From positions 3,638 to 67,637 of the forward strand of contig CAYZIC010000001.1 of the NCBI GenBank assembly GCA_964478335.1: 64,000 nucleotides of DNA, given 5' to 3'. Source of the DNA: an uncultured Lentisphaeraceae bacterium. GTDB taxonomy: Bacteria > Verrucomicrobiota > Kiritimatiellia > RFP12 > DVOR01. The notes beneath the pieces were generated by a model, which was not told where the DNA came from, did no database searches, and worked only from the letters and a program-made list of their open reading frames with translations. Positions 8,867-55,560 of this stretch are shown piece by piece (within the stretch, counting starts at the first letter, position 1; each line of letters begins with the position of its first letter). The translations under genes and the position numbers were made by a program.

Positions 8867-8942
8867 GCCGGTTTAGCTCAGTTGGTAGAGCAGCTGATTT
8901 GTAATCAGCAGGTCGTGGGTTCAAGTCCCTCTGCCGGCTCCA
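8867..8942 (+). tRNA. tRNA-Thr (anticodon UGU), CCA encoded
   Basis: The sequence folds by hand into a cloverleaf: acceptor GCCGGTT/GCCGGC, T-arm GGTTCAAGTCC, anticodon loop TTTGTAA. Confidence 0.9.
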
Positions 8943-33783: not shown

Positions 33784-33875
33784 TTTGCCTTGCAATCCAT
33801 TGATCATTTGCCTTGTAACCCAAAAGACGAATGCCTTGCAACCCAAAAGAAGAATGCCTTGCAACCTATTTATGA
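33784..33875 (+). repeat. four tandem degenerate 23-bp repeats with core TGCCTTGCAA
   Basis: Core occurrences start at 33786, 33809, 33832 and 33855, giving an exact 23-bp period. A 12-bp perfect palindrome CCATTGCAATGG lies just upstream at 33766-33777. Confidence 0.6.
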
Positions 33876-45574: not shown

Positions 45575-45914
45575 TATTGATAGACCTTTGCTAAAACAAC
45601 AAAACTTCATAAATATACCATAAATCATCCCGTAAATCAAGCATAATCCGGAGGGAAAGAGCAGCAGAGGTGCGAATGTTTCTTCTGAAACCTGCAATAA
45701 TAGATGTCGCCCCTCGCCGATGGGTGACGTGGCAAAACATCCTTAGAGGCGTAGACGCCACCTAACGCACGCTTTAGATTCGTGGAGAATGTGCCCCTAA
45801 AAAACAAAAGACCCACGCAATTTGCGTAGGCCCAATAAATATGGTGGGCCAATGGGGGAGATATTCTAACTTTAGGGGCGGTTGCGGGAGATATTATCAG
45901 ATTGTTAGCGGCAT

Positions 45915-45939
45915 AAAAAAGCCACCTTTTGGGGGTGGC
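45915..45939 (-). terminator. rho-independent terminator (minus strand) closing the prophage accessory genes
   Basis: GCCACC(CCCAAAA)GGTGGC is followed by TTTTTT on the minus strand. Confidence 0.4.
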
Positions 45940-46137
45940 TGCGGGGTCAGGATTTTGCGTGGGCTCTGATAGCTGCTGATACCCAGCTGACGCGGTCGGC
46001 TCCTGGCGGGATGCTGGCGAGAGCTGCGGTCTCAACCCTGATGACGCTGGTCTCTGGGCGCGGCTTGTCGCCCCAGCGGCTGCGGGCTCCTAGTTGGCCC
46101 GCTGCGCTTTTTGTCGGCACTTTGCTCATTGGTACTC

Positions 46138-46617
46138 CTAGCAGCCAAAGGGCATGACGCACCAACCGCATGGGCGGTCGCCTCCAACGGGTTCGCAATA
46201 GCTATAGCCGATTTTGGCAAGCTCTGTTTGGATAAAATCGGCGATTGAGTTGGATTGCCATTCGTCGTTGCAAGATTCTTCCTTGCTGTGGTTTTTAATC
46301 TCATAGCCATTGTTATAGATCTCCCACGCAATAACCAGGCCTCTAAGATTAGCGTCACAATCATTCCACGCAAAGGCCTCAAGGCCTTCGGTCAAAAAGC
46401 GCACGCCCTCGTAAGTTAGGCTGATGTCAGCCATTTCGCCATACTCGGCCTTGATGGATTTTTGGATATTTTCAAGCGTCTGCTCGACAAGTGCGAGGTC
46501 GTCGAGGGCAACTTGATTGAGCAACTCGATCAAGGCCTCCTGCTTGTCTTTACGTTTGGAGATCGTATTGATGCGGTGGGCGGGGTCAAAAGTTACTGTA
46601 ATTTTGCGATTTTTCAT
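46138..46617 (-). CDS. hypothetical prophage accessory protein
   Basis: 159 aa, Cys-containing at the C-terminus (CGWCVMPFGC). An RBS AGGAGCACCACC precedes the ATG. Confidence 0.5.
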   Translation of the reverse strand: MKNRKITVTFDPAHRINTISKRKDKQEALIELLNQVALDDLALVEQTLENIQKSIKAEYGEMADISLTYEGVRFLTEGLEAFAWNDCDANLRGLVIAWEIYNNGYEIKNHSKEESCNDEWQSNSIADFIQTELAKIGYSYCEPVGGDRPCGWCVMPFGC

Positions 46618-46643
46618 GGTGGTGCTCCTTTTTGTGGGGGTGC

Positions 46644-47330
46644 TTAGAGTGAGTTTCCAAGGTCGATAAGTTGATCTTGGTTGCCATTACGCCCAAACAT
46701 CGAAACGATATCACGCAATTGGCTATCGTCGGCGAATTGATTTGATGCCAAGACCTCGAGGATGGCAGCGGTTTCATCAGCCGAGAAAACTCGGTCGATG
46801 TATGTGATTTGCAAATTGCCATGTTTGGTAAAGGCTTTGCGGTCGATTGCATTGCGATCCTCAAGGCTCATCGCGTCATATGCCTCTTTGCCTTTTTTGT
46901 GGGCGAGGTAGTCCTCTGTGGAAGCAAAGCCAGAAACGTAGATGTCGCAGAGGGAATAAGTGATGCCCATGTCATCGCCGTGGTCTTGCCATTGCGCTTG
47001 GTCGTATGAGCCTTGGGTTTGAGCAGCGTCAAGCAGTGCATCTGCCTCGGCTTGTGTGAGGCCATCAATGTCGCAAAACGGATTTGTCTCGATCTGCTGC
47101 GGTTGAGGGAGGTCGAGAAGTTCGGCTAGCTCATTGGCTGCGTCGTTTCGTTCGGTTGCCGTCACTGCACGGCCGTGGACGCTTTCAAGATACTCATTGA
47201 TCGCAGATAGCTCATCGAGGTGACCATCTTCACATAGGCGCTCGAATCCCCTGAAGTTGGGGTTGAGGCCATCGCAGTCGCAGTATAGTGGGTAGAGGGT
47301 TGCTTGCTTAAGTGTGTTTTGATTTTTCAT
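46644..47330 (-). CDS. acidic hypothetical protein (candidate DNA-mimic/anti-restriction-like)
   Basis: 228 aa and strongly D/E-rich, with an RBS GGAATACCACT before the ATG. No recognisable catalytic motif. Confidence 0.5.
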   Translation of the reverse strand: MKNQNTLKQATLYPLYCDCDGLNPNFRGFERLCEDGHLDELSAINEYLESVHGRAVTATERNDAANELAELLDLPQPQQIETNPFCDIDGLTQAEADALLDAAQTQGSYDQAQWQDHGDDMGITYSLCDIYVSGFASTEDYLAHKKGKEAYDAMSLEDRNAIDRKAFTKHGNLQITYIDRVFSADETAAILEVLASNQFADDSQLRDIVSMFGRNGNQDQLIDLGNSL

Positions 47331-47381
47331 AGTGGTATTCCTTTGGGTTGTTGCGGGGGCTTTCGCCCCCAGTGAGTGTAG

Positions 47382-47855
47382 TTAGCCAATGATCAAGTTT
47401 TCGTTTGCCAATTCGAGGTAGCGTTCAATAAACTCCTCGTCGGTGTCTGCCTCGATCTGGTCGCAGATACTGTCGTCCATCAGATTGCGGATTGCATCCA
47501 TGCCCACTTCTTCGATTGCTTCGGCAGGAGTGGTAAAGCTAAGGCCGTTATCAACGGAGATAGCAGCGTCTGCACCAAGCTCGAATGCTTCGAGCGTGCC
47601 AATCTGCGTGTACACGTCTACTAACTCGCACTCACCAAGGTTAACCCATCCGTATTGCGTTTCGATTGCAACGTATAGGCCAAACTCCTCGGATGCGTAA
47701 ACCTTAATTTGTTCACCTTGAGCATCATTGCCTTCGTACGCTAAAAATGCAAACGATACGTTGTCCGCATCGAAACCAACGTCTGCTGCGATAAGTGCTG
47801 CGGACTCTTCTGCTGTTAGCTTGCGGGTGTTTTTGATTGAGTTAATTGTTTTCAT
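47382..47855 (-). CDS. very acidic hypothetical protein (candidate DNA-mimic/anti-defense)
   Basis: 157 aa from the internal ATG at 47855 (RBS AAAAGGAACACGACC). D/E-rich throughout. The ORF-track N-terminal extension lacks an RBS. Confidence 0.5.
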   Translation of the reverse strand: MKTINSIKNTRKLTAEESAALIAADVGFDADNVSFAFLAYEGNDAQGEQIKVYASEEFGLYVAIETQYGWVNLGECELVDVYTQIGTLEAFELGADAAISVDNGLSFTTPAEAIEEVGMDAIRNLMDDSICDQIEADTDEEFIERYLELANENLIIG

Positions 47856-47954
47856 GGTCGTGTTCCTTTTTTGTTGGTTGGTTGATTGTGTTTTGTCTCT
47901 TAAAACGCCTCTATTATAGCGTATTTGTGCTATTGTTACAATAGCAAATATACA

Positions 47955-48000
47955 AAAAAGTGCAAAAAAATGCACTTTTTGGGGTATTTTGGGGTATTTT
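47955..48000. promoter_or_regulatory. operator-like inverted repeat (AAAAAGTGCA-N7-TGCACTTTTT) plus 2x GGGGTATTTT direct repeat upstream of the accessory-gene operon
   Basis: Perfect 10-bp inverted arms, with direct repeats adjacent. The element lies in the 5' region of the minus-strand genes. Confidence 0.4.
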
Positions 48001-48023: not shown

Positions 48024-48054
48024 CAAAAAAACCGCAGTTTTAGCTGCGGTTTTT
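48024..48054. terminator. bidirectional rho-independent terminator
   Basis: The sequence is AAAAAAA-CCGCAG-TTTTA-GCTGCGG-TTTTT. It lies 23 nt downstream of the stop of the minus-strand gene ending at 48077. Confidence 0.65.
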
Positions 48055-48076: not shown

Positions 48077-48790
48077 TCAAATTGTCGGGATACTAAAGGC
48101 TGGCGGGGCACTATCGAGGGTGACCAGGCTGCTGGCATGGAGGTCGATCGACCCCTCCTTTGCGTCTGCGACCGCAGTCGAACTTGGTCGAATTGCAAAA
48201 GTCACGTGTGGTATTGTATGACCGTATGCGACTGCCTCGGCCCTGGCCGTCATAGCCATTGGTAGTATCTCGCTGTAAGGCTGCCCCTGCACTATATCGG
48301 TTGTAAGTGTTGCCAGCTGCTGGCAGGCGGCAGGGTTTACGGTTGACGGCTTGGCGCCAATGGACAGCAAGATATCGACGGTTGCAGTACCAACAATTGC
48401 AAGAGACGAGCAGTCCCCAATAAGGCGTATCGTTCGGCGGCCAGCAGGCCTCCCTGAAACGAAACTCACGGAAGAATAGGCGTCTGTGGTCAGCTCGACC
48501 GGGTAACTTGTCTCTGATTGCTCGAAGCGGAACGCATAGGCAGCCGACAGGCTGCTGCCATAGACGACGGTAGGCTCTAACGTGTCAACCTTGCTAGACG
48601 CAGCTCCGCTCGCCTCTCGCTGGATAATTGCCGCGACTGGCCTGCTTGACAAGTCAACCGTATCACTCGAGTGTCTCTGCGACGCAAAAGCTGTCGCAGT
48701 GCGGCCGCTGTGGGGATTGGCGGTGCGGAGGATAACTTTGCCGCTTGCGCCGATCAGCAGGTGCCGATTATGAGTGAGGAGGGTTGCCAT
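48077..48790 (-). CDS. phage tail-associated hypothetical protein
   Basis: 237 aa from the ATG at 48790, 4 nt after the upstream stop. It is the last gene of the structural module. Confidence 0.45.
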   Translation of the reverse strand: MATLLTHNRHLLIGASGKVILRTANPHSGRTATAFASQRHSSDTVDLSSRPVAAIIQREASGAASSKVDTLEPTVVYGSSLSAAYAFRFEQSETSYPVELTTDAYSSVSFVSGRPAGRRTIRLIGDCSSLAIVGTATVDILLSIGAKPSTVNPAACQQLATLTTDIVQGQPYSEILPMAMTARAEAVAYGHTIPHVTFAIRPSSTAVADAKEGSIDLHASSLVTLDSAPPAFSIPTI

Positions 48791-48794
48791 GGCG

Positions 48795-49865
48795 TTACTC
48801 AAAGATGTGGTTATTGTCGTGAGGCTCAAATGCCACGATGAGCGACGGATTGGTGGCGACGGTGATGCGTTGGTTGGCATCGACCTTGACCAGCTTGGCC
48901 GTGATGCCGTCGTCCGTGACGGTTAAGTCACCTGCGAGAGTTGTCGGTGGCACATATTGGCCGAGCTGGTATGGTCCTCTCTGATACTGCGTGATCGAGG
49001 CATTGCCTAGTACTGCGACAATCATCGATACAACCGTACCAGACTCTTTTGCGGTCGAGAGATGCCAGGTAAAATCATAGGTGTGACTCTGCGCATCGAT
49101 TATTTTTTTGACGGCCTTGATATGCAAATAGACGGGGCCAGCGTAGGTGTCATCAGCCACCGGATGCCACGGGGTGTCATACGTCCCGCTATAGGTTACC
49201 GTTGCGCCGCCGAGCGCATTGACGCAGCCCTCGTATTGAGGCGCAGTACCTAAAAACATCTCAAACTTTTTGCCATTAATCCTGGCATCAAAGATCTCGA
49301 TCTTGCCGCTCCCGCCAGAGACTGCGGTAATCGCGGACGTGACATAGGGGATCACGTGGACATTATAATCGTCAGATCGGATATTGAGCTCATCGCCGTG
49401 GAGGACAGGCACAACTCGCGCGATCCTTACAAAAATATCAGACTTGCTGCGTAACGCATCGAGCTCATCGCTCGTTAGACTTGCGTGATACTTGCAATAC
49501 GCGCTATCTCCTCCGCCAATCCTGATGGCTGCATACACATCCACGGACGAGGATAGGCGAGTAGGCGACCAAGTTGACATCGTCTCGCCATGCGCAACTT
49601 TGACCCATCTGGCATACGCATCGGAGGTCGCTCGCCCCTCAATATCCGCACCCTTGTTGTCGCAATAAACGGACTCGACAGACGACAGACACCCACTGGT
49701 GTGATAGACAATAATCGATTTATTTTTATAAGAGTACCTGACCTCAAAAGGGTGAGGAGGCCTGCGGGCGTTGCGGCTTGAGGCAGGGGATGGAGAGGCA
49801 AGATTTTGCGATCCGAGGAGCGCTGCCAACTGTGCGGCCGTTGTGTCTGAGAGTAATTTTGCCAT
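48795..49865 (-). CDS. phage tail fiber/receptor-binding-like protein
   Basis: 356 aa from the ATG at 49865 (MAKLLSDTT...), with a beta-rich composition. It lies at the distal end of the tail module. Confidence 0.45.
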   Translation of the reverse strand: MAKLLSDTTAAQLAALLGSQNLASPSPASSRNARRPPHPFEVRYSYKNKSIIVYHTSGCLSSVESVYCDNKGADIEGRATSDAYARWVKVAHGETMSTWSPTRLSSSVDVYAAIRIGGGDSAYCKYHASLTSDELDALRSKSDIFVRIARVVPVLHGDELNIRSDDYNVHVIPYVTSAITAVSGGSGKIEIFDARINGKKFEMFLGTAPQYEGCVNALGGATVTYSGTYDTPWHPVADDTYAGPVYLHIKAVKKIIDAQSHTYDFTWHLSTAKESGTVVSMIVAVLGNASITQYQRGPYQLGQYVPPTTLAGDLTVTDDGITAKLVKVDANQRITVATNPSLIVAFEPHDNNHIFE

Positions 49866-49878
49866 AGTCAAAAGATCC

Positions 49879-50232
49879 TTACTTAACAAATAATTTGGCA
49901 ACGCTGGCAAAAATCGACTGCCCGCCGACAGAGATGAGCAACGCAGCCCCCAGCCAGATAATCGCACGATCTCGTCCCCTGAGGATACCCTCGTACTTAG
50001 ACTCAACGGCCCTGACAATCCCGTCGCAATCCGCTCGCTCCTGCTTGATCCGCTGGTCAATTTTGGCCAGCGTCTTGCCCTGCTCAGAGATCAGTCTGAG
50101 GCAGAGTAGGCTCAGGTTGATCGACACGGCACTCGCAGCAGGTGCCCCCTCTTTTTTGAGATCCTCAAGGGCACTTTTTGCCTCCTCCACCTGCTGCTGC
50201 ATCAGCGTCGCCTCTGTTGTTGATATGCACAT
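49879..50232 (-). CDS. hypothetical prophage protein with coiled coil and C-terminal TM
   Basis: 117 aa with a C-terminal hydrophobic helix (AIIWLGAALLISVGGQSIFASVAKLFV). Confidence 0.4.
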   Translation of the reverse strand: MCISTTEATLMQQQVEEAKSALEDLKKEGAPAASAVSINLSLLCLRLISEQGKTLAKIDQRIKQERADCDGIVRAVESKYEGILRGRDRAIIWLGAALLISVGGQSIFASVAKLFVK

Positions 50233-50296
50233 CGCCTAATACTCCTTGACAAAAAAATAAATAAATGATACCTTAGCTCCAAAAAAAAGGAGCTCC

Positions 50297-50488
50297 ATGA
50301 AAAAACTGTTTACCGAATTAAGCAAAATCGCTATCGCCTTGGCGATCTCTCTCGCCATCGGCCTGGCCATCGCAGAGATCCTCTTTAGCCTGCAACGCAG
50401 CTACTCAATGACCATCGGACACGCCAGGCTAATCATCCCCATTATCATCTATCTCGCAATCGAGCGACATTGCCTCAAGGATGATTAG
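50297..50488 (+). CDS. small hydrophobic two-TM peptide (toxin-like/holin-like), opposite strand to the phage genes
   Basis: 63 aa with a strong RBS AAAAGGAGCTCC. An inverted repeat AGCTCC-A8-GGAGCT overlaps the RBS. A TTGACA -35-like element lies upstream. Confidence 0.4.
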   Translation: MKKLFTELSKIAIALAISLAIGLAIAEILFSLQRSYSMTIGHARLIIPIIIYLAIERHCLKDD

Positions 50489-50499
50489 CCGCTACGCTG

Positions 50500-50805
50500 C
50501 TACTTGGTTAACGATATAGGCAGATCGGTCTCGGGCGAGATCGTTTGCGTGGGTGTGGCCGTGGTCGACTCTTCGCCCTCGTTTTGTGCCATGATGTCTG
50601 CCGAGAGGATGGAGAGGGATCTGCGACCGTCGTCTGTGTCGGGGGTGCGTGGATCACCTGGCACCTTGCCGACAGTGATGGTGCAGTCTCGGACATTGAG
50701 GGTAATTGCGTTGGAGCGTGACGGGGTCATCCCCATGCCTGCGCAGCCCGTAAGAGCGAGTAGCGCAGGGATGGCGAGGAGGGTGAGTAGGTGTGTTTTT
50801 TGCAT
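50500..50805 (-). CDS. lipoprotein, hypothetical (prophage)
   Basis: A lipobox (LALTGC) and a Pro/Thr-rich mature part are present. Confidence 0.5.
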   Translation of the reverse strand: MQKTHLLTLLAIPALLALTGCAGMGMTPSRSNAITLNVRDCTITVGKVPGDPRTPDTDDGRRSLSILSADIMAQNEGEESTTATPTQTISPETDLPISLTK

Positions 50806-50816
50806 GATTGCGTCCT

Positions 50817-50990
50817 TTATTTATCAGAATCCTTGGAGCAAATGAGGCCGCCAGCTGTGATGATGACGGGTACGACAAGCTGCCAGTTAGCGGTCGTTGT
50901 GGGGTCGTTGTCCCATTGCGCAGCGAGCTGCGTAGCGACGACCGAGACGACAGTGAGAATGGCGGCGGTGGTGGTTTTCCAGTTTTTCAT
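50817..50990 (-). CDS. small membrane protein, hypothetical
   Basis: MKNWKTTTAAILTVVSVVATQL is a single TM. The start at 50990 has a weak AAGGAC RBS. Confidence 0.35.
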   Translation of the reverse strand: MKNWKTTTAAILTVVSVVATQLAAQWDNDPTTTANWQLVVPVIITAGGLICSKDSDK

Positions 50991-51149
50991 TTTTTTTAGT
51001 CCTTTTTTAAGGGTTAGTAAAATCATTAAGCGGGTCGTAAACAGATGCGATCTGTATCGTGGCTAGCCAGTGGCAGCAGTCGTAGCGCATGGCCGAGTAG
51101 CCGACAACGAGGGCGACCGCAGCGAGGACGATAGCGATGAGCCATTGCA

Positions 51150-51845
51150 TTACTTCGTCTCCTGGCCGTCATAGTATGGCGGTGGCGTGAGCGGATAATC
51201 GTCCCAGTTTGGCTCCTCGATCGGCTCTGGTTTTGGCTTAGGCGAGATGTCAAAGGCGATGCGTTGCGGTTGGGGAGTCATTGGCGCGGCCATCATGCGG
51301 CTGCGCATCATGGGTTGAGGTGCGAGAGCCATCGCAGGGTCAACCAAAACGCCCCCTCTAAAATCGTAGTGCTTGCCACCGATGAGGCCGCTCCACGTAC
51401 GGCCTCGGCGGACGCCCGCATCGCTCACGAGCAGGAGCTGACCGCTCTCAAAATTGCGCAATGCTCCGCCAAAGCGAACTCTGCGTGATGGCGTGATGCG
51501 CTTGGCGTTGACGGCTTCGGGGAGGGTAATTGTGTAGCGATAGGTGTTGTAATTACCCTGCTCTTTACTCGGCCAGCTGCACTGCTCCTCGCCTGCAAAA
51601 ACGGATACCGCTTTTTTTGTGCCAGTAAACCGAAACTCCATCGAGGGAGCTGCTGTCGGCTCTTTGCTAAATGATACATAGATATCGGCTGTCCTGCCGT
51701 CATCGGCGACTTTTATTGACTCGACACGGCCACGGAGGTCGGGTTGCACGATGGCGTAGGGGTCTGCCTCAAATGTGGTGACCACGGGGGTGTCAAGGGC
51801 AAGGCAAACGCTTGCCATCATCGATAAAAATAGTGCTAGTCTCAT
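51150..51845 (-). CDS. secreted hypothetical protein with a Pro-rich C-terminus (prophage)
   Basis: A signal peptide is present. The gene overlaps its neighbour's start (operonic). Confidence 0.45.
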   Translation of the reverse strand: MRLALFLSMMASVCLALDTPVVTTFEADPYAIVQPDLRGRVESIKVADDGRTADIYVSFSKEPTAAPSMEFRFTGTKKAVSVFAGEEQCSWPSKEQGNYNTYRYTITLPEAVNAKRITPSRRVRFGGALRNFESGQLLLVSDAGVRRGRTWSGLIGGKHYDFRGGVLVDPAMALAPQPMMRSRMMAAPMTPQPQRIAFDISPKPKPEPIEEPNWDDYPLTPPPYYDGQETK

Positions 51846-52162
51846 TGGTTGCCTCCTACTTGTTGCCTCAGCTCTTGCAAGGCTTGGTTAAGCTTGCCCA
51901 TTAGTTGGCCATTGATCTCTGCGGTGGTGTCAGCCCCGTAAAGGCGAGCTTGGGCAAGCTCTACTCGATTGAGGGATACTGTGATGTTTACCCCTCGGTT
52001 TGTGTAATGGAGCCGTGGCATCTCGGGATCGTCCCAGTCCATCGTCACCATCTGCGGGATCGTGGGTTTTGGTTTGGGCGGGTCAGGCTTGCCCACGCCG
52101 TCTAAGCCCATGGCGAAGCAGTACCAGACGCAGAGTCCGCCAAAAAGTAAGCCCTTGCTCAT
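51842..52162 (-). CDS. small secreted hypothetical protein
   Basis: A signal peptide is present. Stop and start codons overlap the neighbours. Confidence 0.4.
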   Translation of the reverse strand: MSKGLLFGGLCVWYCFAMGLDGVGKPDPPKPKPTIPQMVTMDWDDPEMPRLHYTNRGVNITVSLNRVELAQARLYGADTTAEINGQLMGKLNQALQELRQQVGGNQ

Positions 52163-52935
52163 GGTGTCACCTCGTCAGCCAGTGGCGTGAGGTCGTCCAC
52201 TAAAACCCCGCCAACAAAGTTGAGCACGGTGCCATCATCGGCCGTGATTGTAACAGTCTTGCCCTTTGCTCCGTTTACGCTAAGCCCCCCGTAAATCGGG
52301 AAGCCGTAGCCATCAGACACTGCGCCATCGGGCGAGGCGACTACTTTCCAAAAGTGCTGACCTTGCGGCCTTGCGGACGTGTAGGTGTAGCAGACACCGC
52401 TTGTCTTGTCTGCTGGGTTGGGGACTGTGGTGGGGTAGCTGCATACCCACTTTTCGGTCTTAAAGCCACTGAGCGTGGTCGACCCCATCATCTCGAGCTG
52501 TGACGCGGCCGCTGGTACTTGGCTGCACCAAAGGGTGATCACCGCTTCGGCCTCCGTAAACTTGAGGTCAACGATCTGCAGTTCGCCCGTGTATGGCGGG
52601 ATGCCAGTCAAAACTGAGATGCTGTTTGCATAGGCTTGCAACCACCAGATGCCATCACGTGTGGCATCGTTAATCTCGGCCGTCAAGCTGTCGATTGTCG
52701 TCTGCATGGTGGTCAGCTCTGCCTCTTGAGCGGAGACTTTGGCACTGACTGCGTCTGCCTTTGACTCAACCGCTTTGACTTGTTGGCCAGAGGCGATCGC
52801 ACCTTTGGGGTAGACCTCTTTGCCATCAGTGGTGATCAAGGCTCGAGCGACATTGGCTGGCATCGGTGGGAGGCCTTGAGCGGATAATTGCAATGTGCAT
52901 ATTATGCACATTGCTAATAGGGGCTGCTTAATCAT
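52159..52935 (-). CDS. secreted protein with coiled-coil, tail fiber-associated
   Basis: A signal peptide and a coiled-coil segment are present. It lies directly downstream of the tail fiber gene. Confidence 0.4.
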   Translation of the reverse strand: MIKQPLLAMCIICTLQLSAQGLPPMPANVARALITTDGKEVYPKGAIASGQQVKAVESKADAVSAKVSAQEAELTTMQTTIDSLTAEINDATRDGIWWLQAYANSISVLTGIPPYTGELQIVDLKFTEAEAVITLWCSQVPAAASQLEMMGSTTLSGFKTEKWVCSYPTTVPNPADKTSGVCYTYTSARPQGQHFWKVVASPDGAVSDGYGFPIYGGLSVNGAKGKTVTITADDGTVLNFVGGVLVDDLTPLADEVTP

Positions 52936-54101
52936 TACTTGACCTCCTTGAGTACGAGGGTTTGGAGATTATCATCGTAGGCGATGACGCACTTTTTGTT
53001 GTCGACTGTGTGAGTTGTGCGGGCGTCTAAGTCGCTTTTTCGGGCGATTGCCGTCGGCTGAGTCGGGTCTAGGTGGTAAAACGTATGGTTGTCGCCAACC
53101 TTGTAGTCGATCTTGTCGAGCTCTAATGCCGAGTAGTCAAACGTTTGATTGGTCGAGGATCTCACGGCAAATCCGCCAGCAATGTTGGTGCCTGTATTTT
53201 TTGCCAATGCCCAATAGTACTTTGCGGGATAGAGTACCAGCCCGCCATTTTTGAGCCACTCTGTCCCCGCCTTACCATCGATCGAGCCCTGCAATCCTGC
53301 AATCTCACCGATCGAGTAGCTGGGCTTAGTGGCGGCCTTTGCCCATGCTTTAATAGTTGGGTCTACCTCTTTAGTGAGGTAGCCGCCTTTGGGCTGTGAA
53401 TAGGCCTTGAGCGCTGCGATCGTGGCCAAACTCGACACGCCAGGCTGGTCGCGATAGGTGGTAAGGTCGCTGAGGCCATCTCGCATCATGAGGGCAGATG
53501 CGCCCTGCGCCAATAAAAGCTGCGTGCGATCGCCCATAAGGATTGCGCCAGCCTGCATCTGCTTGTCATCCGGGTTGGCGTATCGACTAATTTGGATGAG
53601 CGCACCGTCTGCGCCATTGCCCATCTGCACGACTTGATCTTGCGGCGCAAACTGGATTACGCCATCACCACTATTTAGATTAGCGATAAAGCTAGCTGTT
53701 GCACCGCCCTTGATCTCGCCAATCGAGTAGCTCGGCTTGCTCGCAGCTTTAGCCCAGGCCTTGATGGTGGGGTCGGCCTCAGTGGTGAGGTAATTGCCCT
53801 TGGGCTGCTTGCCGGCCAACGCACCCTGCAATCCCGTGATGGTGCTAATGGCCTGCGTATGGGCGGCTGGCGCAAAGGTTGCGGGCTTGCCTGAGATGAT
53901 ATCCCAGCTTACTGCGTCAAGGTAGCCTAGCGATTGGATAAAGTTGCGCAGCGTTTGATCGAGGTCGTCTCGCTGCTCGGTTACGTAGGTCACGACCTCC
54001 TCAGCGGTGAGTAGCTTGTCGTCATTGTAGAGATCCTCTTTGGCTGTGCCTGCTGGTGTGGCGACTGCTGCGAGGGTGGTGAATAAAATTACGTTAATCA
54101 T
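52935..54101 (-). CDS. phage tail fiber protein with an internal ~40-aa duplication
   Basis: The repeat (DPTIKAWAKAASKPSYSIGEI) occurs twice. The position and size are fiber-like. Confidence 0.55.
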   Translation of the reverse strand: MINVILFTTLAAVATPAGTAKEDLYNDDKLLTAEEVVTYVTEQRDDLDQTLRNFIQSLGYLDAVSWDIISGKPATFAPAAHTQAISTITGLQGALAGKQPKGNYLTTEADPTIKAWAKAASKPSYSIGEIKGGATASFIANLNSGDGVIQFAPQDQVVQMGNGADGALIQISRYANPDDKQMQAGAILMGDRTQLLLAQGASALMMRDGLSDLTTYRDQPGVSSLATIAALKAYSQPKGGYLTKEVDPTIKAWAKAATKPSYSIGEIAGLQGSIDGKAGTEWLKNGGLVLYPAKYYWALAKNTGTNIAGGFAVRSSTNQTFDYSALELDKIDYKVGDNHTFYHLDPTQPTAIARKSDLDARTTHTVDNKKCVIAYDDNLQTLVLKEVK

Positions 54102-54628
54102 TGCTTGTCTCCGATCTCTTTGAGGGCTGCGATGAGCCCGTTAAGCGTTTGCTTGACATCCTTGTCACGGTAACGATCTGGCACCGCTGCGACCGCTGAG
54201 AGGACGGTCTCGAGCATCTCCACCGTCACTGGACGAGAGACCTCTGTTGGCCCAATGCCAGAGCCTAAGCCAAAAGGATTGATCGCGATCATCGTATCGG
54301 ATGATGAGATAAAGTGGTAGTCGTCGCCGACGACGACTGAGACTGGATAGTGCTTGGTCAAGCGGTCGCCCGCCTTGGCCACCTCGACCAGGTAATCGAC
54401 CATCTCGTTAGTCCGGGTATCAAGCTCAAAAGTGCCATCAGGCGCAATCTTTGCAGACGCAAGGATATCGTTAGTGGCTGGATTGCGCAGCTCGACCTTG
54501 AGGCCTGTGATGCCAGCAAGCCCGAGTTTATCAAAGTTAAGCACTTTGGCCCGCTCAATCGAGTAAGCAGCCAATACGCTTGGGCCAAAAGAGCAGCCAC
54601 GGCGATTAAGATCTATGATTAAGTTCAT
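54098..54628 (-). CDS. phage tail/baseplate-associated protein
   Basis: 176 aa, lying between the distal tail protein and the fiber and overlapping their stop and start codons. Confidence 0.35.
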   Translation of the reverse strand: MNLIIDLNRRGCSFGPSVLAAYSIERAKVLNFDKLGLAGITGLKVELRNPATNDILASAKIAPDGTFELDTRTNEMVDYLVEVAKAGDRLTKHYPVSVVVGDDYHFISSSDTMIAINPFGLGSGIGPTEVSRPVTVEMLETVLSAVAAVPDRYRDKDVKQTLNGLIAALKEIGDKQ

Positions 54629-54630
54629 TT

Positions 54631-55560
54631 TTACTCCTCGTTAAAAAACCACTGCTTGTACCAGGTGGCCGATTTATGTTTTGCAATCCTCTTAAAAACA
54701 GGTGTGCCCGTAAAATTACGCTCGCCTTTTTCGTTGAGTAGGACTGGAGATGTCGACGGAATTGCCTCGCCAGTCTCCTCGTCGATCTCCGTCGCACGAG
54801 CGATAAGTCCGCACGATTGCCGCTTGACAAGATAACCTTGCAGCACGATGGCCACGTCGTGGCCGATGTCGATAAGCTCATCGTCGATCGTGACCATATT
54901 GTGGTCTTGTATGGCGACGGTAATCGTGTATCGCCACAGCCATGTCGGATCGTCATAAACTCGAGCCGCGCTCACTGACAAGAGCCCGCATCGCGGCTCA
55001 ACGGTTCGGCCGTCTAGCTTAATGCGATTTGCATTAACGGTGCCAGACGCGGCGAGGATTGACGCAGGGATTGCCTTGGCATGGCGTGTAATCGTAAAGA
55101 CTGGCCGATCGATCTCCGTTTGTATCGCTGACGCAAGCGGCTCTAAGGTCACGGGCATGACGATCGCCTCGCCTGTCTCGGCATCCTTGAGCAGGTCGAC
55201 GGTTGAGCGTTGCATGGTCCAGGATCGATCCACCTCTTGCTGCACTGGCAGCTCAGGATCGCTCCCACCTGAGCCACCTCCTCCAGAGACTTCCTCGCTG
55301 CGTTCGTAGGTCGCGGTAAAAATAGCGATACCATATTCAAATGCGCAGCTATACTTTGTCAAGCGCAGCCGCTGGTCGGTTGGCGTATAGAGCGAGCCGT
55401 ATGGCGGCAATCCCGCCCGATCAGGCGTGATATCGCTGGGCACGACACTGGCCAGAGGCGACCAAACTTTGTACTGTCGAGAGACCGACTCGATCTGGCC
55501 GCTCACGTCGCGGTCTACTCTGAGCCCGCCTGCGATCTCTGCGTGGATATAGTGTGCCAT
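54631..55560 (-). CDS. phage distal tail protein-like
   Basis: 309 aa, immediately downstream of the tape measure gene with a start/stop overlap. Confidence 0.4.
   Translation of the reverse strand: MAHYIHAEIAGGLRVDRDVSGQIESVSRQYKVWSPLASVVPSDITPDRAGLPPYGSLYTPTDQRLRLTKYSCAFEYGIAIFTATYERSEEVSGGGGSGGSDPELPVQQEVDRSWTMQRSTVDLLKDAETGEAIVMPVTLEPLASAIQTEIDRPVFTITRHAKAIPASILAASGTVNANRIKLDGRTVEPRCGLLSVSAARVYDDPTWLWRYTITVAIQDHNMVTIDDELIDIGHDVAIVLQGYLVKRQSCGLIARATEIDEETGEAIPSTSPVLLNEKGERNFTGTPVFKRIAKHKSATWYKQWFFNEE

What the first reader, a model, noticed from the sequence alone, without database searches (positions are those of the whole stretch)
46138..47855. Three-gene accessory operon at the prophage end encoding strongly acidic proteins: candidate DNA-mimic anti-restriction or other anti-defense factors
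After the last tail gene and a bidirectional terminator, three small genes (157, 228 and 159 aa) each have good RBSs and MKN/MKT starts. They sit behind an operator-like 10-bp inverted repeat plus a 2x GGGGTATTTT repeat. The first two proteins are extremely Asp/Glu-rich, like Ocr/ArdA-type DNA mimics. I could not match them confidently to ArdA motifs. The third has a Cys-cluster C-terminus. Position, composition and independent regulation are typical of moron or anti-defense cargo.
Basis: inference. Interest (0 to 1): 0.55.

Follow-up and report, generated by a model that had tools for sequence, protein, structure and literature searches.

The report
Prophage cassette with anti-CRISPR-like gene
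A small, separately regulated gene cassette at the end of a prophage encodes three unusually acidic proteins; the first ends in a diverged copy of a known anti-CRISPR domain (AcrIC5), and the other two have no relatives in any database searched, so this is a plausible but untested counter-defence locus.

Summary
Three minus-strand genes lie between a bidirectional terminator and host genes: g1 47855-47382, g2 47330-46644, g3 46617-46138. They have their own sigma-70-like promoter. They are the three most acidic of 67 ORFs in the window (pI 4.05, 4.22, 4.66).

A possible fourth ORF (g4, 46129-45947) encodes a 60-aa very basic protein, followed by two terminators. A perfect 8+1+8 palindrome covers the -35 box.

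g1 is a two-domain protein. Its last 59 residues are a diverged member of the AcrIC5 anti-CRISPR family (PF22147). They are 47% identical to Bacillus phage Mgbh1 gp12, which is a clear family member. A family profile that includes g1 hits the AcrIC5 crystal structure 7YHR at E=1.6e-9. g1 alone scores below Pfam's cut-off.

g2 and g3 are orphans; only self-matches were significant among 5.8 billion proteins. Nothing supports ArdA or Ocr membership. AlphaFold models without alignments were unusable.

Best reading: an acr-type anti-defence moron in a prophage of a Kiritimatiellae/Lentisphaerae-like (PVC) bacterium. Function is inferred, not shown. It is a new member of a known kind and of moderate interest.

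The parts
48027..48054 (.). Bidirectional intrinsic terminator separating the last tail-fibre-like gene (48790-48077) from the cassette
   Evidence: Perfect 11-nt arms AAAAACCGCAG/CTGCGGTTTTT. RNA fold -17.6 kcal/mol, z -3.5.
47977..47996 (.). Tandem direct repeat, 2x TTTTGGGGTA, upstream of the promoter. Function unknown; it could be an UP element or a regulator-binding site.
   Evidence: D2. Unique in the window, 0 expected by chance.
47955..47980 (.). 10-bp inverted repeat AAAAAGTGCA(N6)TGCACTTTTT. It is equally well read as a second, A/T-rich bidirectional terminator that insulates the promoter.
   Evidence: Listed as terminator-like on both strands. Fold -14.2 kcal/mol, z -7.1.
47929..47945 (.). 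Perfect palindrome GCTATTGT-T-ACAATAGC covering the -35 hexamer and part of the spacer. It extends to imperfect 16-nt arms at 47921-47953. Best operator candidate.
   Evidence: I2; one match in the window, 0.19 expected.
47913..47941 (-). Sigma-70-like promoter TTGTAA-17-TATAAT (10 of 12 consensus positions), about 57 nt upstream of the g1 start codon
   Evidence: A consensus match only; the transcription start is not shown.
47382..47855 (-). g1, 157 aa, pI 4.05. The N-terminal ~98 aa is a domain with no relatives. The C-terminal 59 aa (residues 99-157, DNA 47382-47561) is a diverged AcrIC5-family domain of the 'IS.DNG...MDD...YLE...LIIG' subfamily.
   Evidence: PF22147 scores 19.9-22.4 bits against a cut-off of 27. 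tblastn to Mgbh1 gp12 gives E=1e-6, 47% identity; gp12 itself scores 46.1 bits on PF22147. A profile built without g1 finds only g1 among 1204 six-frame segments of the window, E=7.6e-4. Profiles that include g1 have 7YHR AcrIC5 as top PDB hit, E=0.0027 and 1.6e-9.
47355..47370 (-). Intercistronic GC-rich stem-loop GGGGGC-GAAA-GCCCCC, 11 nt after the g1 stop codon, with no T-run. Probably an mRNA-stabilising or processing hairpin.
   Evidence: Fold -15.7 kcal/mol. The same 21-mer (hairpin plus GCAAC) occurs in 9 IMG/VR contigs in 3 unrelated contexts; in 8 of them (two contexts) an ATG follows within about 25 nt. No Rfam CRISPR-repeat match.
46644..47330 (-). g2, 228 aa, pI 4.22, net -25. An orphan.
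   Evidence: Only a self-match among 5.8e9 proteins. An exhaustive phmmer search of 1.84e9 representatives found self plus one marginal repeat-motif hit, P0004. No significant Pfam, PHROG, NCBIfam, PADLOC or PDB hit; the best were weak PHROG and Pfam matches of unknown function (phrog_32893 E=0.0047, DUF5962 E=0.15). No tblastn hit in phages or plasmids.
46138..46617 (-). g3, 159 aa, pI 4.66. Basic N-terminal ~30 aa, acidic core, and a C-terminal Cys cluster (C141, C150, C153, C159). An orphan.
   Evidence: Only sub-threshold DUF7895 hits, E=0.03-0.1. AlphaFold2 from the single sequence gave pLDDT 43.
45947..46129 (-). g4, a possible fourth gene: 60 aa, pI 11.4. Its AGGAG RBS overlaps the g3 stop codon. 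It may be a small DNA-binding regulator; this is inferred only.
   Evidence: Sequence. Composition: GC 0.64, with no clear codon-position signal. No significant Pfam, NCBIfam, PADLOC or PDB hit.
45920..45940 (-). Intrinsic terminator immediately after g4 (AGCCACC...GGTGGCT followed by TTTTTT)
45809..45833 (-). Second, stronger terminator between the cassette and the promoter of the host oxidoreductase gene
   Evidence: Fold -16.7 kcal/mol, z -5.5.

Best explanation
The locus is a self-contained accessory cassette (a moron) at the host-proximal end of a prophage in a bacterium of the PVC group (Kiritimatiellae/Lentisphaerae-like). It most likely serves counter-defence.

Shown:
- It has its own near-consensus promoter and is flanked by terminators on both sides.
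- It encodes the three most acidic proteins in the window.
- g1 is a fusion protein. A novel ~98-aa N-terminal domain is joined to a diverged AcrIC5-family domain.

From the literature:
- The Pseudomonas protein blocks CRISPRi, is very acidic, and is predicted to occupy the PAM-binding site of Cas8c.

Inferred:
- g1 binds the host's Cascade (Cas8c-like subunit) and prevents target-DNA binding. This would protect the phage on infection and the prophage from self-targeting.
- g2 and g3 are lineage-specific orphans. They are candidate additional inhibitors by association with g1 and by their charge.
- The palindrome over the -35 box is an operator through which the cassette is repressed. The repressor might be the small basic g4 product or the basic N-terminus of g3, as Aca proteins do in acr operons.
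For: g1's domain:
- Pfam lists AcrIC5 as its only hit, at 19.9-22.4 bits.
- It is 47% identical over 59 aa to Mgbh1 gp12. gp12 scores 46.1 bits on PF22147, against a cut-off of 27.
- An independent profile built without g1 picks g1 alone out of 1204 window segments. E=7.6e-4; the next best is 1.9.
- All 8 aligned relatives hit PF22147. Their profile, which includes g1, hits PDB 7YHR AcrIC5 at E=1.6e-9.

Family context:
- 33 IMG/VR and 7 metagenome loci carry the same subfamily. At least 7 of these genes have unrelated N-terminal extensions, as g1 does. Several are followed by small basic genes that look like RHH or HTH proteins.
- Mgbh1 gp12 lies in an early-gene region that also holds an ArdA gene.

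Literature:
- AcrIC5 is broadly distributed and blocks CRISPRi (PMC7913775).
- A Bifidobacterium prophage homologue is active against type I-C (PMC10651486).
- It is described as acidic and as binding the DNA-binding site (PMC10478522). A Cas8c PAM-site complex is predicted (bioRxiv 10.1101/2025.06.06.658234).
- An AcrIC5-like domain fused to a structural homologue of another Acr has been described (PMC10799925).

Cassette layout and charge:
- Promoter, palindrome and terminators.
- Acidity ranks 1-3 of 67 ORFs.
- The cassette is absent from 14 related genomes that keep the oxidoreductase-metG synteny.
Against: - g1 alone is below Pfam's gathering score. It has lost conserved family positions: the R of D-I-R-E is C, the H is E, and the 4-residue 'LAPC' segment is deleted.
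- No function has been measured.
- The host's CRISPR-Cas type is unknown. The window holds no cas genes and no CRISPR array.
- g2 and g3 have no homology to anything, so their role rests on association and charge only.
- g4 has no hit to a DNA-binding family and no clear coding signature. No HTH or RHH was detected in g3 either.
- Structure predictions were unusable: pLDDT 38 and 43.
Confidence: 0.5

Rival explanations
1. Ocr/ArdA-type DNA mimics: the acidic proteins, especially g2, imitate B-form DNA and sequester type I restriction-modification or BREX complexes.
For: Total negative charge (-26 and -25) is of the order I recall for Ocr and ArdA; that comparison is from memory and was not computed here (charges). 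The position as an independently transcribed accessory cassette also fits. DNA mimics share no sequence similarity with each other, so the absence of hits does not exclude the idea.
Against: - No ArdA (PF07275) hit at E<=1 for any of the proteins, and none at E<=10 on fragments. A later Pfam scan scored a genuine phage ArdA at 67 bits.
- BLASTP of g2 against that ArdA shows only a 23-residue match, E=0.013 for the single comparison.
- No significant match to any PDB chain by sequence at E<=10.
- Charge density is lower than I recall for Ocr (from memory).
- The only positive homology in the cassette points to an anti-CRISPR family instead.
Confidence: 0.1
2. An ordinary lineage-specific moron or early-gene set unrelated to immune evasion, for example superinfection exclusion, host takeover or lysogenic conversion. 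On this reading the AcrIC5-like domain is a generic small helical module reused in another role.
For: - g2 and g3 are complete orphans.
- g1's domain is diverged and below the Pfam threshold.
- The subfamily is fused to many unrelated N-terminal domains, which could indicate a general adaptor module.
- Only two family members have been tested experimentally (PMC7913775, PMC10651486).
Against: [quoted passage not shown] The family's typical neighbourhood fits anti-defence islands: small acidic genes, ArdA, and small basic regulator-like genes. The extreme acidity of all three products would be an unexplained coincidence.
Confidence: 0.25
3. A toxin-antitoxin or immunity-type module: the acidic proteins neutralise a basic partner (g4 or a host or phage nuclease), which stabilises the prophage.
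For: A very basic 60-aa ORF (pI 11.4) is translationally linked to acidic proteins. A palindromic operator at the promoter is typical of autoregulated TA operons.
Against: No significant Pfam, NCBIfam or PADLOC hit to any toxin, antitoxin or immunity family. Three large acidic genes for one 60-aa partner is atypical. It is uncertain that g4 is coding.
Confidence: 0.05
4. The cassette is not phage cargo but a small host islet that happens to lie next to the integration site.
For: The att site and integrase are outside the window, so the boundary is undefined. Two terminators and a pair of 20-nt direct repeats (45846-45895) lie left of g4, not right of g1. The GC content of g1-g3 (0.48-0.51) is a little lower than that of the phage structural genes (0.53-0.57).
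Against: The cassette is absent from all 14 related genomes that keep the oxidoreductase-metG neighbourhood. Its strand is the same as the phage late genes. All relatives of g1's domain that were found lie in phage or viral contigs.
Confidence: 0.05

Closest known systems
AcrIC5 (Pseudomonas delhiensis anti-CRISPR; Pfam PF22147; PDB 7YHR)
   Same: The core motif is shared..NLMD(D/A)..(R)E.......(T).(E)F...Y.. The protein is strongly acidic and phage- or prophage-encoded. The family is spread across phyla. A family profile that includes g1 matches 7YHR at E=1.6e-9.
   Different: - g1 is 157 aa, not about 60. It carries an unrelated ~98-aa N-terminal domain, a 20-residue 'IS.DNG.S..TPAEA' lead-in and a C-terminal 'LIIG' tail, none of which AcrIC5 has.
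- On its own it scores below the Pfam cut-off.
- The host is a PVC-group bacterium.
- Activity and target are untested.
Bacillus phage Mgbh1 gp12 (AMQ66671.1) and its metagenomic relatives: the 'M.IS.(D/N)NG...MDDD.RE.VH..LAPC..EFL..YL.....L(I/V)(I/V)G' subfamily
   Same: 47% identity over the whole 59-aa domain, including the lead-in and the terminal IIG. The genes are phage-borne. In Mgbh1 the gene sits among early or accessory genes that include an ArdA gene.
   Different: Most members are stand-alone proteins of 66-77 aa. g1 lacks the LAPC segment and the R and H of the DIRE.VH motif. None of these proteins has been characterised.
acr-aca operons, e.g. the acr loci of Pseudomonas JBD30-like phages repressed by Aca1 (comparison partly from my own knowledge)
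   Same: A strong promoter with inverted repeats, one or more small acidic inhibitor genes, and a candidate small DNA-binding gene at the 3' end. The operon is located in a prophage and transcribed on its own.
   Different: No recognisable HTH or RHH Aca domain was detected. The genes are larger than typical acr genes (157-228 aa). The regulator assignment is inference only.
Fused anti-CRISPRs (AcrIE4-F7; predicted fusions of AcrIC5-like and AcrIIC4-like domains, PMC10799925)
   Same: An Acr-family domain fused in one polypeptide to a second domain.
   Different: g1's N-terminal domain has no detectable similarity to any known Acr or to the N-terminal extensions of other family members.
Ocr (T7 gp0.3) and ArdA DNA-mimic anti-restriction proteins
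   Same: High net negative charge; phage accessory genes.
   Different: No sequence or profile similarity. The fold could not be assessed.

Membership tests
AcrIC5 family (Pfam PF22147) | Match to the family HMM at or above the curated gathering score (27 bits) | tested here: not met
   g1 full length scores 19.9 bits (E=8.3e-4). The C-terminal 59 aa alone scores 22.4 bits (E=1.3e-4). PF22147 is the only family listed.
AcrIC5 family (Pfam PF22147) | Significant similarity to undoubted family members, shown by transitive and profile evidence | tested here: met
   tblastn to Mgbh1 gp12 gives E=1e-6 against 2.3 Gb, 47% identity over 59 aa. gp12 scores 46.1 bits on PF22147. A profile built without g1 retrieves only g1 from the window, E=7.6e-4. 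A profile of g1 plus gp12 has 7YHR as top PDB hit, E=0.0027. An 8-member profile that includes g1 hits it at E=1.6e-9.
AcrIC5 family (Pfam PF22147) | Conserved core residues (M-D-D ... F ... Y) | tested here: met
   M126, D127, D128 and Y146 are invariant across all 8 aligned members. However, g1 has C for the conserved R and E for the conserved H, and it lacks the 4-residue LAPC segment.
AcrIC5 family (Pfam PF22147) | Small (~60-75 aa) single-domain protein | tested here: not met
   g1 is 157 aa with an extra N-terminal domain. At least 7 other members (110-167 aa) also carry unrelated N-terminal extensions.
AcrIC5 family (Pfam PF22147) | The AcrIC5 fold (7YHR) | tested here: inconclusive
   AlphaFold2 from the single sequence gave pLDDT 37.9. 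That is too low for a fold search, and alignments containing outside sequences could not be submitted.
AcrIC5 family (Pfam PF22147) | Inhibition of type I-C CRISPR-Cas interference by blocking DNA binding | not testable with these tools
   This needs a plaque or CRISPRi assay. The host's CRISPR type is unknown; the window holds no cas genes or CRISPR array.
acr-aca operon | A gene for an HTH or RHH autorepressor (Aca) in the operon | tested here: inconclusive
   Candidates are g4 (60 aa, pI 11.4) and the basic N-terminus of g3. Neither has a Pfam, NCBIfam or PDB match to a DNA-binding family.
acr-aca operon | Inverted repeats overlapping the acr promoter | tested here: met
   The perfect palindrome at 47929-47945 covers the -35 box of a 10/12-consensus promoter. 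Binding has not been shown.
Moron (autonomous prophage accessory transcription unit) | Own promoter and terminator, located between conserved phage modules or at a genome end | tested here: met
   Terminator at 48027-48054, promoter at 47941-47913, terminators at 45940-45920 and 45833-45809. Tail genes lie to the right and host genes to the left.
ArdA anti-restriction (Pfam PF07275) | Match to the ArdA HMM | tested here: not met
   No hit at E<=1 for the whole proteins or at E<=10 for fragments. Positive control: Mgbh1 gp4 scores 67.4 bits. g2 against gp4 by BLASTP gives only a 23-residue match, E=0.013 for the single comparison.
Ocr (T7 gp0.3) | Sequence similarity to Ocr, or an Ocr-like DNA-mimic fold | tested here: inconclusive
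   No significant PDB chain match at E<=10, so sequence similarity is absent. The fold could not be assessed because the models are of low confidence.
RNA anti-CRISPR (Racr, a solitary CRISPR-repeat mimic next to an acr gene) | A hairpin that resembles the host's CRISPR repeat | tested here: inconclusive
   The hairpin at 47355-47370 lies 11 nt after g1. It has no Rfam CRISPR-DR match. The same 21-mer occurs in three unrelated viral contexts, in two of them shortly upstream of an ATG, which favours a generic stem-loop. The host's repeat is unknown.

The most novel reading that the evidence does not exclude
The cassette is a multi-inhibitor anti-defence island from a phage lineage with no close relatives in IMG/VR, infecting PVC-group bacteria. 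On this reading g1 is a dual-function fusion: a new inhibitor domain joined to an AcrIC5-like Cascade blocker. g2 and g3 would found two new families of acidic inhibitors (anti-CRISPR or anti-restriction), and g4 a new type of Aca-like repressor.
Probability: 0.12. Interest if true: 0.65.

Novelty: new member of a known kind. Interest (0 to 1): 0.4.

Why it matters
If g1 is active, the AcrIC5 family would extend to phages of the PVC superphylum, which includes gut-associated Kiritimatiellae and Lentisphaerae. It would also give a natural example of an AcrIC5-like domain fused to a second, unknown module.

Known Acr homologues are the usual anchors for finding new inhibitors by association. That makes g2 and g3, orphans among billions of proteins, reasonable candidates for new anti-defence families. 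This is a useful lead rather than a surprise. Acidic accessory cassettes with an Acr homologue at prophage ends are an established pattern.

Tried and rejected
- **Homologue searches, g1-g3.** The word-indexed search of 5.8e9 proteins returned only self-matches. An exhaustive phmmer search of 1.84e9 representatives with g2 found self plus one marginal hit, P0004. That is an acidic repeat protein sharing an 'NQFAD' helix motif; its score is summed over 7 repeats and says nothing about function.
- **tblastn** of g2 and g3 against phages and plasmids, and of g1 against plasmids, found nothing. blastn of the whole locus against phages found nothing.
- **Family libraries.** PHROGs, NCBIfam and PADLOC gave nothing significant.
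- **AlphaFold2.** Single-sequence models of g1 and g3 had pLDDT 37.9 and 43.1. I therefore ran no fold searches, because matches to such models are meaningless. Alignments with outside sequences are not accepted by the tool.
- **Joint search of g1+g2.** They are in the same frame, but the query was rejected because of the stop codon.
- **Paralogy among g1-g4:** none.
- **N-terminal domain of g1** against the N-terminal extensions of other family members: no similarity.
- **Neighbours of 40+ family loci:** no g2, g3 or g4 relatives.
- **ArdA resemblance of the g2 C-terminal half,** suspected by eye, was rejected.
- **Racr (CRISPR-repeat mimic) reading of the g1-g2 hairpin:** no Rfam support, and the same hairpin recurs in unrelated phages.
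- **Related phages.** Scans of IMG/VR with the tail and portal proteins found none. The exact-sequence look-up of the source contig failed.
- **Empty-site comparison.** It identified the host lineage and the conserved oxidoreductase-metG synteny. At 64-69% protein identity the relatives are too distant to map the att site.
Full report
**1. The observation**

The three genes are on the minus strand.
- g1: 47855-47382, 157 aa.
- g2: 47330-46644, 228 aa.
- g3: 46617-46138, 159 aa.

Each follows an AAGGA(A/G) ribosome-binding site.

Their products have pI 4.05, 4.22 and 4.66 and net charges of -26, -25 and -10. g3 has six cysteines, four of them in its last 19 residues. Among 67 non-overlapping ORFs in the window they rank first, second and third for D+E content and for negative charge per residue. 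The window mean is 10.1% D+E, sd 3.7.

Upstream of g1 lie these elements:
- a perfect bidirectional terminator at 48027-48054;
- the 2x TTTTGGGGTA repeat at 47977-47996;
- the 10-bp inverted repeat at 47955-47980.

**2.

- **Promoter and operator.** A near-consensus promoter (TTGTAA-17-TATAAT, 47941-47913, 10 of 12 positions) sits about 57 nt upstream of g1. Its -35 box lies inside a perfect palindrome, GCTATTGT-T-ACAATAGC (47929-47945). This is a better operator candidate than the 10-bp inverted repeat. That repeat lies upstream of the promoter and is followed by a T-run, so it also scores as a terminator on both strands.
- **Possible fourth gene.** Eight bases after g3, with an AGGAG overlapping the g3 stop codon, a 60-codon ORF runs 46129-45947. 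I call it g4. Its product has pI 11.4. Two minus-strand terminators follow at 45940-45920 and 45833-45809. Its coding status is uncertain: GC is 0.64, there is no codon-position signal, and it has no database hit.
- **Intercistronic hairpin.** A GC-rich GNRA hairpin (47355-47370) lies 11 nt after g1 and has no T-run.

**3. Context**

To the right, on the same strand, are phage genes: portal, head-maturation protease, tape measure and a tail protein. They are followed by tail-fibre-like ORFs that have no family hits.

To the left are a GFO/IDH/MocA oxidoreductase and metG. The oxidoreductase-metG pair is conserved, at 64-69% protein identity, in 14 metagenome-assembled genomes. These are labelled Kiritimatiellae, Lentisphaeraceae, 'Candidatus Spyradenecus' or Verrucomicrobia. 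None of them carries the prophage or the cassette. The host is therefore a PVC-group bacterium, and the cassette is accessory DNA at the prophage-host junction.

The att site and integrase are outside the window, so the exact boundary is not defined. No close relative of the phage was found in IMG/VR using its tail and portal proteins as queries. The rest of the window holds ordinary host genes: radical SAM, ABC transporter, type II secretion/type IV pilus and CobN genes. It has no cas genes and no CRISPR array.

**4. What the proteins are**

All three proteins match only themselves at E<=0.001 among 5.8 billion clustered proteins.

*g1.* Pfam lists a single sub-threshold hit, the anti-CRISPR family AcrIC5 (PF22147). 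It scores 19.9 bits against a cut-off of 27, over residues 116-147. Further evidence links the C-terminal domain to this family:
- tblastn against phage genomes found one clear relative of residues 99-157. It is gp12 of Bacillus phage Mgbh1 (66 aa), at E=1e-6 and 47% identity, including a shared C-terminal 'LIIG'.
- gp12 is an unambiguous PF22147 member at 46.1 bits. It lies in an early-gene region that also holds an ArdA gene.
- A profile of g1 plus gp12 has the AcrIC5 crystal structure 7YHR as its top PDB hit, E=0.0027.
- A profile built without g1 retrieves g1 alone from all 1204 six-frame segments of the window. E=7.6e-4; the next best is 1.9.
- Metagenome and IMG/VR scans added about 40 loci. 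All eight aligned members hit PF22147. Their joint profile, which includes g1, hits 7YHR at E=1.6e-9.

The subfamily signature is M.IS.(D/N)NG...MDD(D/E).RE.VH..LAPC..EFL..YL.....L(I/V)(I/V)G-stop. Most members are stand-alone proteins of 66-77 aa. At least seven carry unrelated N-terminal extensions and are 110-167 aa long. g1 is one of these fusions.

g1 is also a diverged member. It has C for the conserved R and E for the conserved H, and it lacks the LAPC segment. Its N-terminal ~98 residues match nothing.

*g2.* An exhaustive phmmer search of 1.84 billion representatives found only g2 itself and one marginal hit. That hit is a 763-aa acidic repeat protein sharing a short 'NQFAD' helix motif.

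*g3.* It has only sub-threshold DUF7895 hits.

*All three.* None has a significant hit in PHROGs, NCBIfam, PADLOC or the PDB. AlphaFold2 without an alignment gave pLDDT 37.9 for g1 and 43.1 for g3. I ran no fold searches on these models.

**5. How it most likely works**

From the literature:
- AcrIC5 is widely distributed across phyla, blocks CRISPRi (that is, target-DNA binding) and works against two type I-C systems (PMC7913775).
- A prophage homologue from Bifidobacterium is also active against type I-C (PMC10651486).
- AcrIC5 is highly acidic and is described as binding the target-DNA-binding site (PMC10478522). A preprint predicts that it occupies the PAM-binding site of Cas8c (10.1101/2025.06.06.658234).
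- A predicted fusion of an AcrIC5-like domain with a structural homologue of another Acr has been noted (PMC10799925).

My best explanation is that the cassette is an acr-type anti-defence moron.
- g1's C-terminal domain blocks DNA binding by a class 1 Cascade. This is inferred.
- g2 and g3 are candidate additional inhibitors, by association and charge only.
- Expression is controlled through the palindrome at the -35 box, perhaps by g4 or by the basic N-terminus of g3, in the manner of Aca repressors. This is inferred, and no DNA-binding domain was detected.

In other family loci the AcrIC5-like gene is often followed by a small basic gene that looks like an RHH or HTH protein. This fits the proposed layout.

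I put the domain assignment at about 0.85 and the anti-defence function of the cassette at about 0.5.

**6. Rival explanations**

- **Ocr/ArdA-type DNA mimicry.** There is no sequence support. ArdA's HMM finds nothing here, although a later Pfam scan scored a true phage ArdA at 67 bits. The idea cannot be excluded for g2, because DNA mimics lack common sequence features.
- **A moron unrelated to defence.** This remains possible. Only two AcrIC5 family members have been tested, and g1 is diverged.
- **A toxin-antitoxin or immunity reading, or a host-islet reading.** Each has little support (see the rival explanations).
- **The g1-g2 hairpin as an RNA anti-CRISPR** (as found 11 nt after an acrIC5 homologue in PMC10651486). 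It has no Rfam CRISPR-repeat match. The same 21-mer occurs in three unrelated viral contexts, in two of them shortly upstream of an ATG. It is more likely a generic stabilising stem-loop.

**7. Verdict**

The support is for anti-defence through an anti-CRISPR family, not for Ocr or ArdA. The cassette is a new, diverged, fused member of a known kind, accompanied by two true orphan acidic proteins, in a phage-host group for which no close relatives turned up. Interest is moderate (0.4). It is a good experimental lead but not a surprise.

Noticed in passing
window 45947-46129 (-): A 60-codon ORF encodes a very basic protein (pI 11.4). Its AGGAG RBS overlaps the g3 stop codon, and a terminator follows it directly. 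It may be a fourth gene of the cassette and a candidate small regulator. It has no database hit and no clear codon-position signal.
   Followed up: partly
window 45846-45895: Two 20-nt direct repeats, 30 nt apart (GGGCCAATGGGGGAGATATT and GGGCGGTTGCGGGAGATATT), lie between the two terminators at the prophage-host junction. They could be att-arm or recombinase-binding sites, or part of the promoter region of the oxidoreductase gene.
   Followed up: no
window 47350-47370 (-); loci L125-L133: The exact 21-mer GGGGGCGAAAGCCCCCGCAAC (a GNRA hairpin plus GCAAC) recurs in 9 IMG/VR contigs in three unrelated sequence contexts. In 8 of them (two contexts) an ATG follows within about 25 nt. It looks like a convergent intercistronic stem-loop design in phages.
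   Followed up: partly
window 48077-64000 (-): The prophage has no close relatives. Most structural proteins, including the presumed capsid (60009-61046) and the tail-fibre-like ORFs, have no Pfam or PHROG hit. IMG/VR scans with the portal and a tail protein found nothing. The host is a PVC-group (Kiritimatiellae/Lentisphaerae-like) bacterium.
   Followed up: partly
window 61279-61466: A 27/54-nt tandem repeat (about 7 copies of the 27-nt unit) lies inside the gene for the head-maturation protease (61062-62243).
   Followed up: no
window 49879-51026 (-): Small membrane-type ORFs lie between the tail genes and the tail-fibre-like genes: a 117-aa protein with a C-terminal transmembrane segment, a 101-aa lipoprotein with an LTGC lipobox, and a 69-aa membrane protein. 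They may form a lysis or spanin-like cassette in an unusual position.
   Followed up: no
P0004 (763-aa protein from the representative library): An acidic protein built from at least 7 near-identical repeats of about 80 aa. Each repeat contains the motif '...LRE(I/L)LERLADNQFADIAQIVDI..LG', which is the only thing resembling the g2 C-terminus (residues 186-211). Its function is unknown and its Pfam hits are all spurious-looking.
   Followed up: partly
L110 3992-4192 and 5027-5227: One IMG/VR contig carries two nearly identical copies of the 66-aa AcrIC5-like gene about 1 kb apart. This is either a duplication or an assembly repeat.
   Followed up: no
L087/L088 (metagenome contigs): AcrIC5-like domains are fused to an N-terminal region containing the basic motif 'AARALGSIKTEKKAAAARENGKKGGRP', giving an overall basic protein (pI 8.4-8.9). 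Not all members of the subfamily are acidic, which bears on how general the 'DNA mimic' idea is for this family.
   Followed up: no
window 8867-8942 and 33809-33866: A single tRNA-Thr(TGT) gene lies among the host genes. A 23-nt tandem repeat of 2.5 copies lies downstream of the CobN-like gene. Neither is connected with the finding.
   Followed up: no
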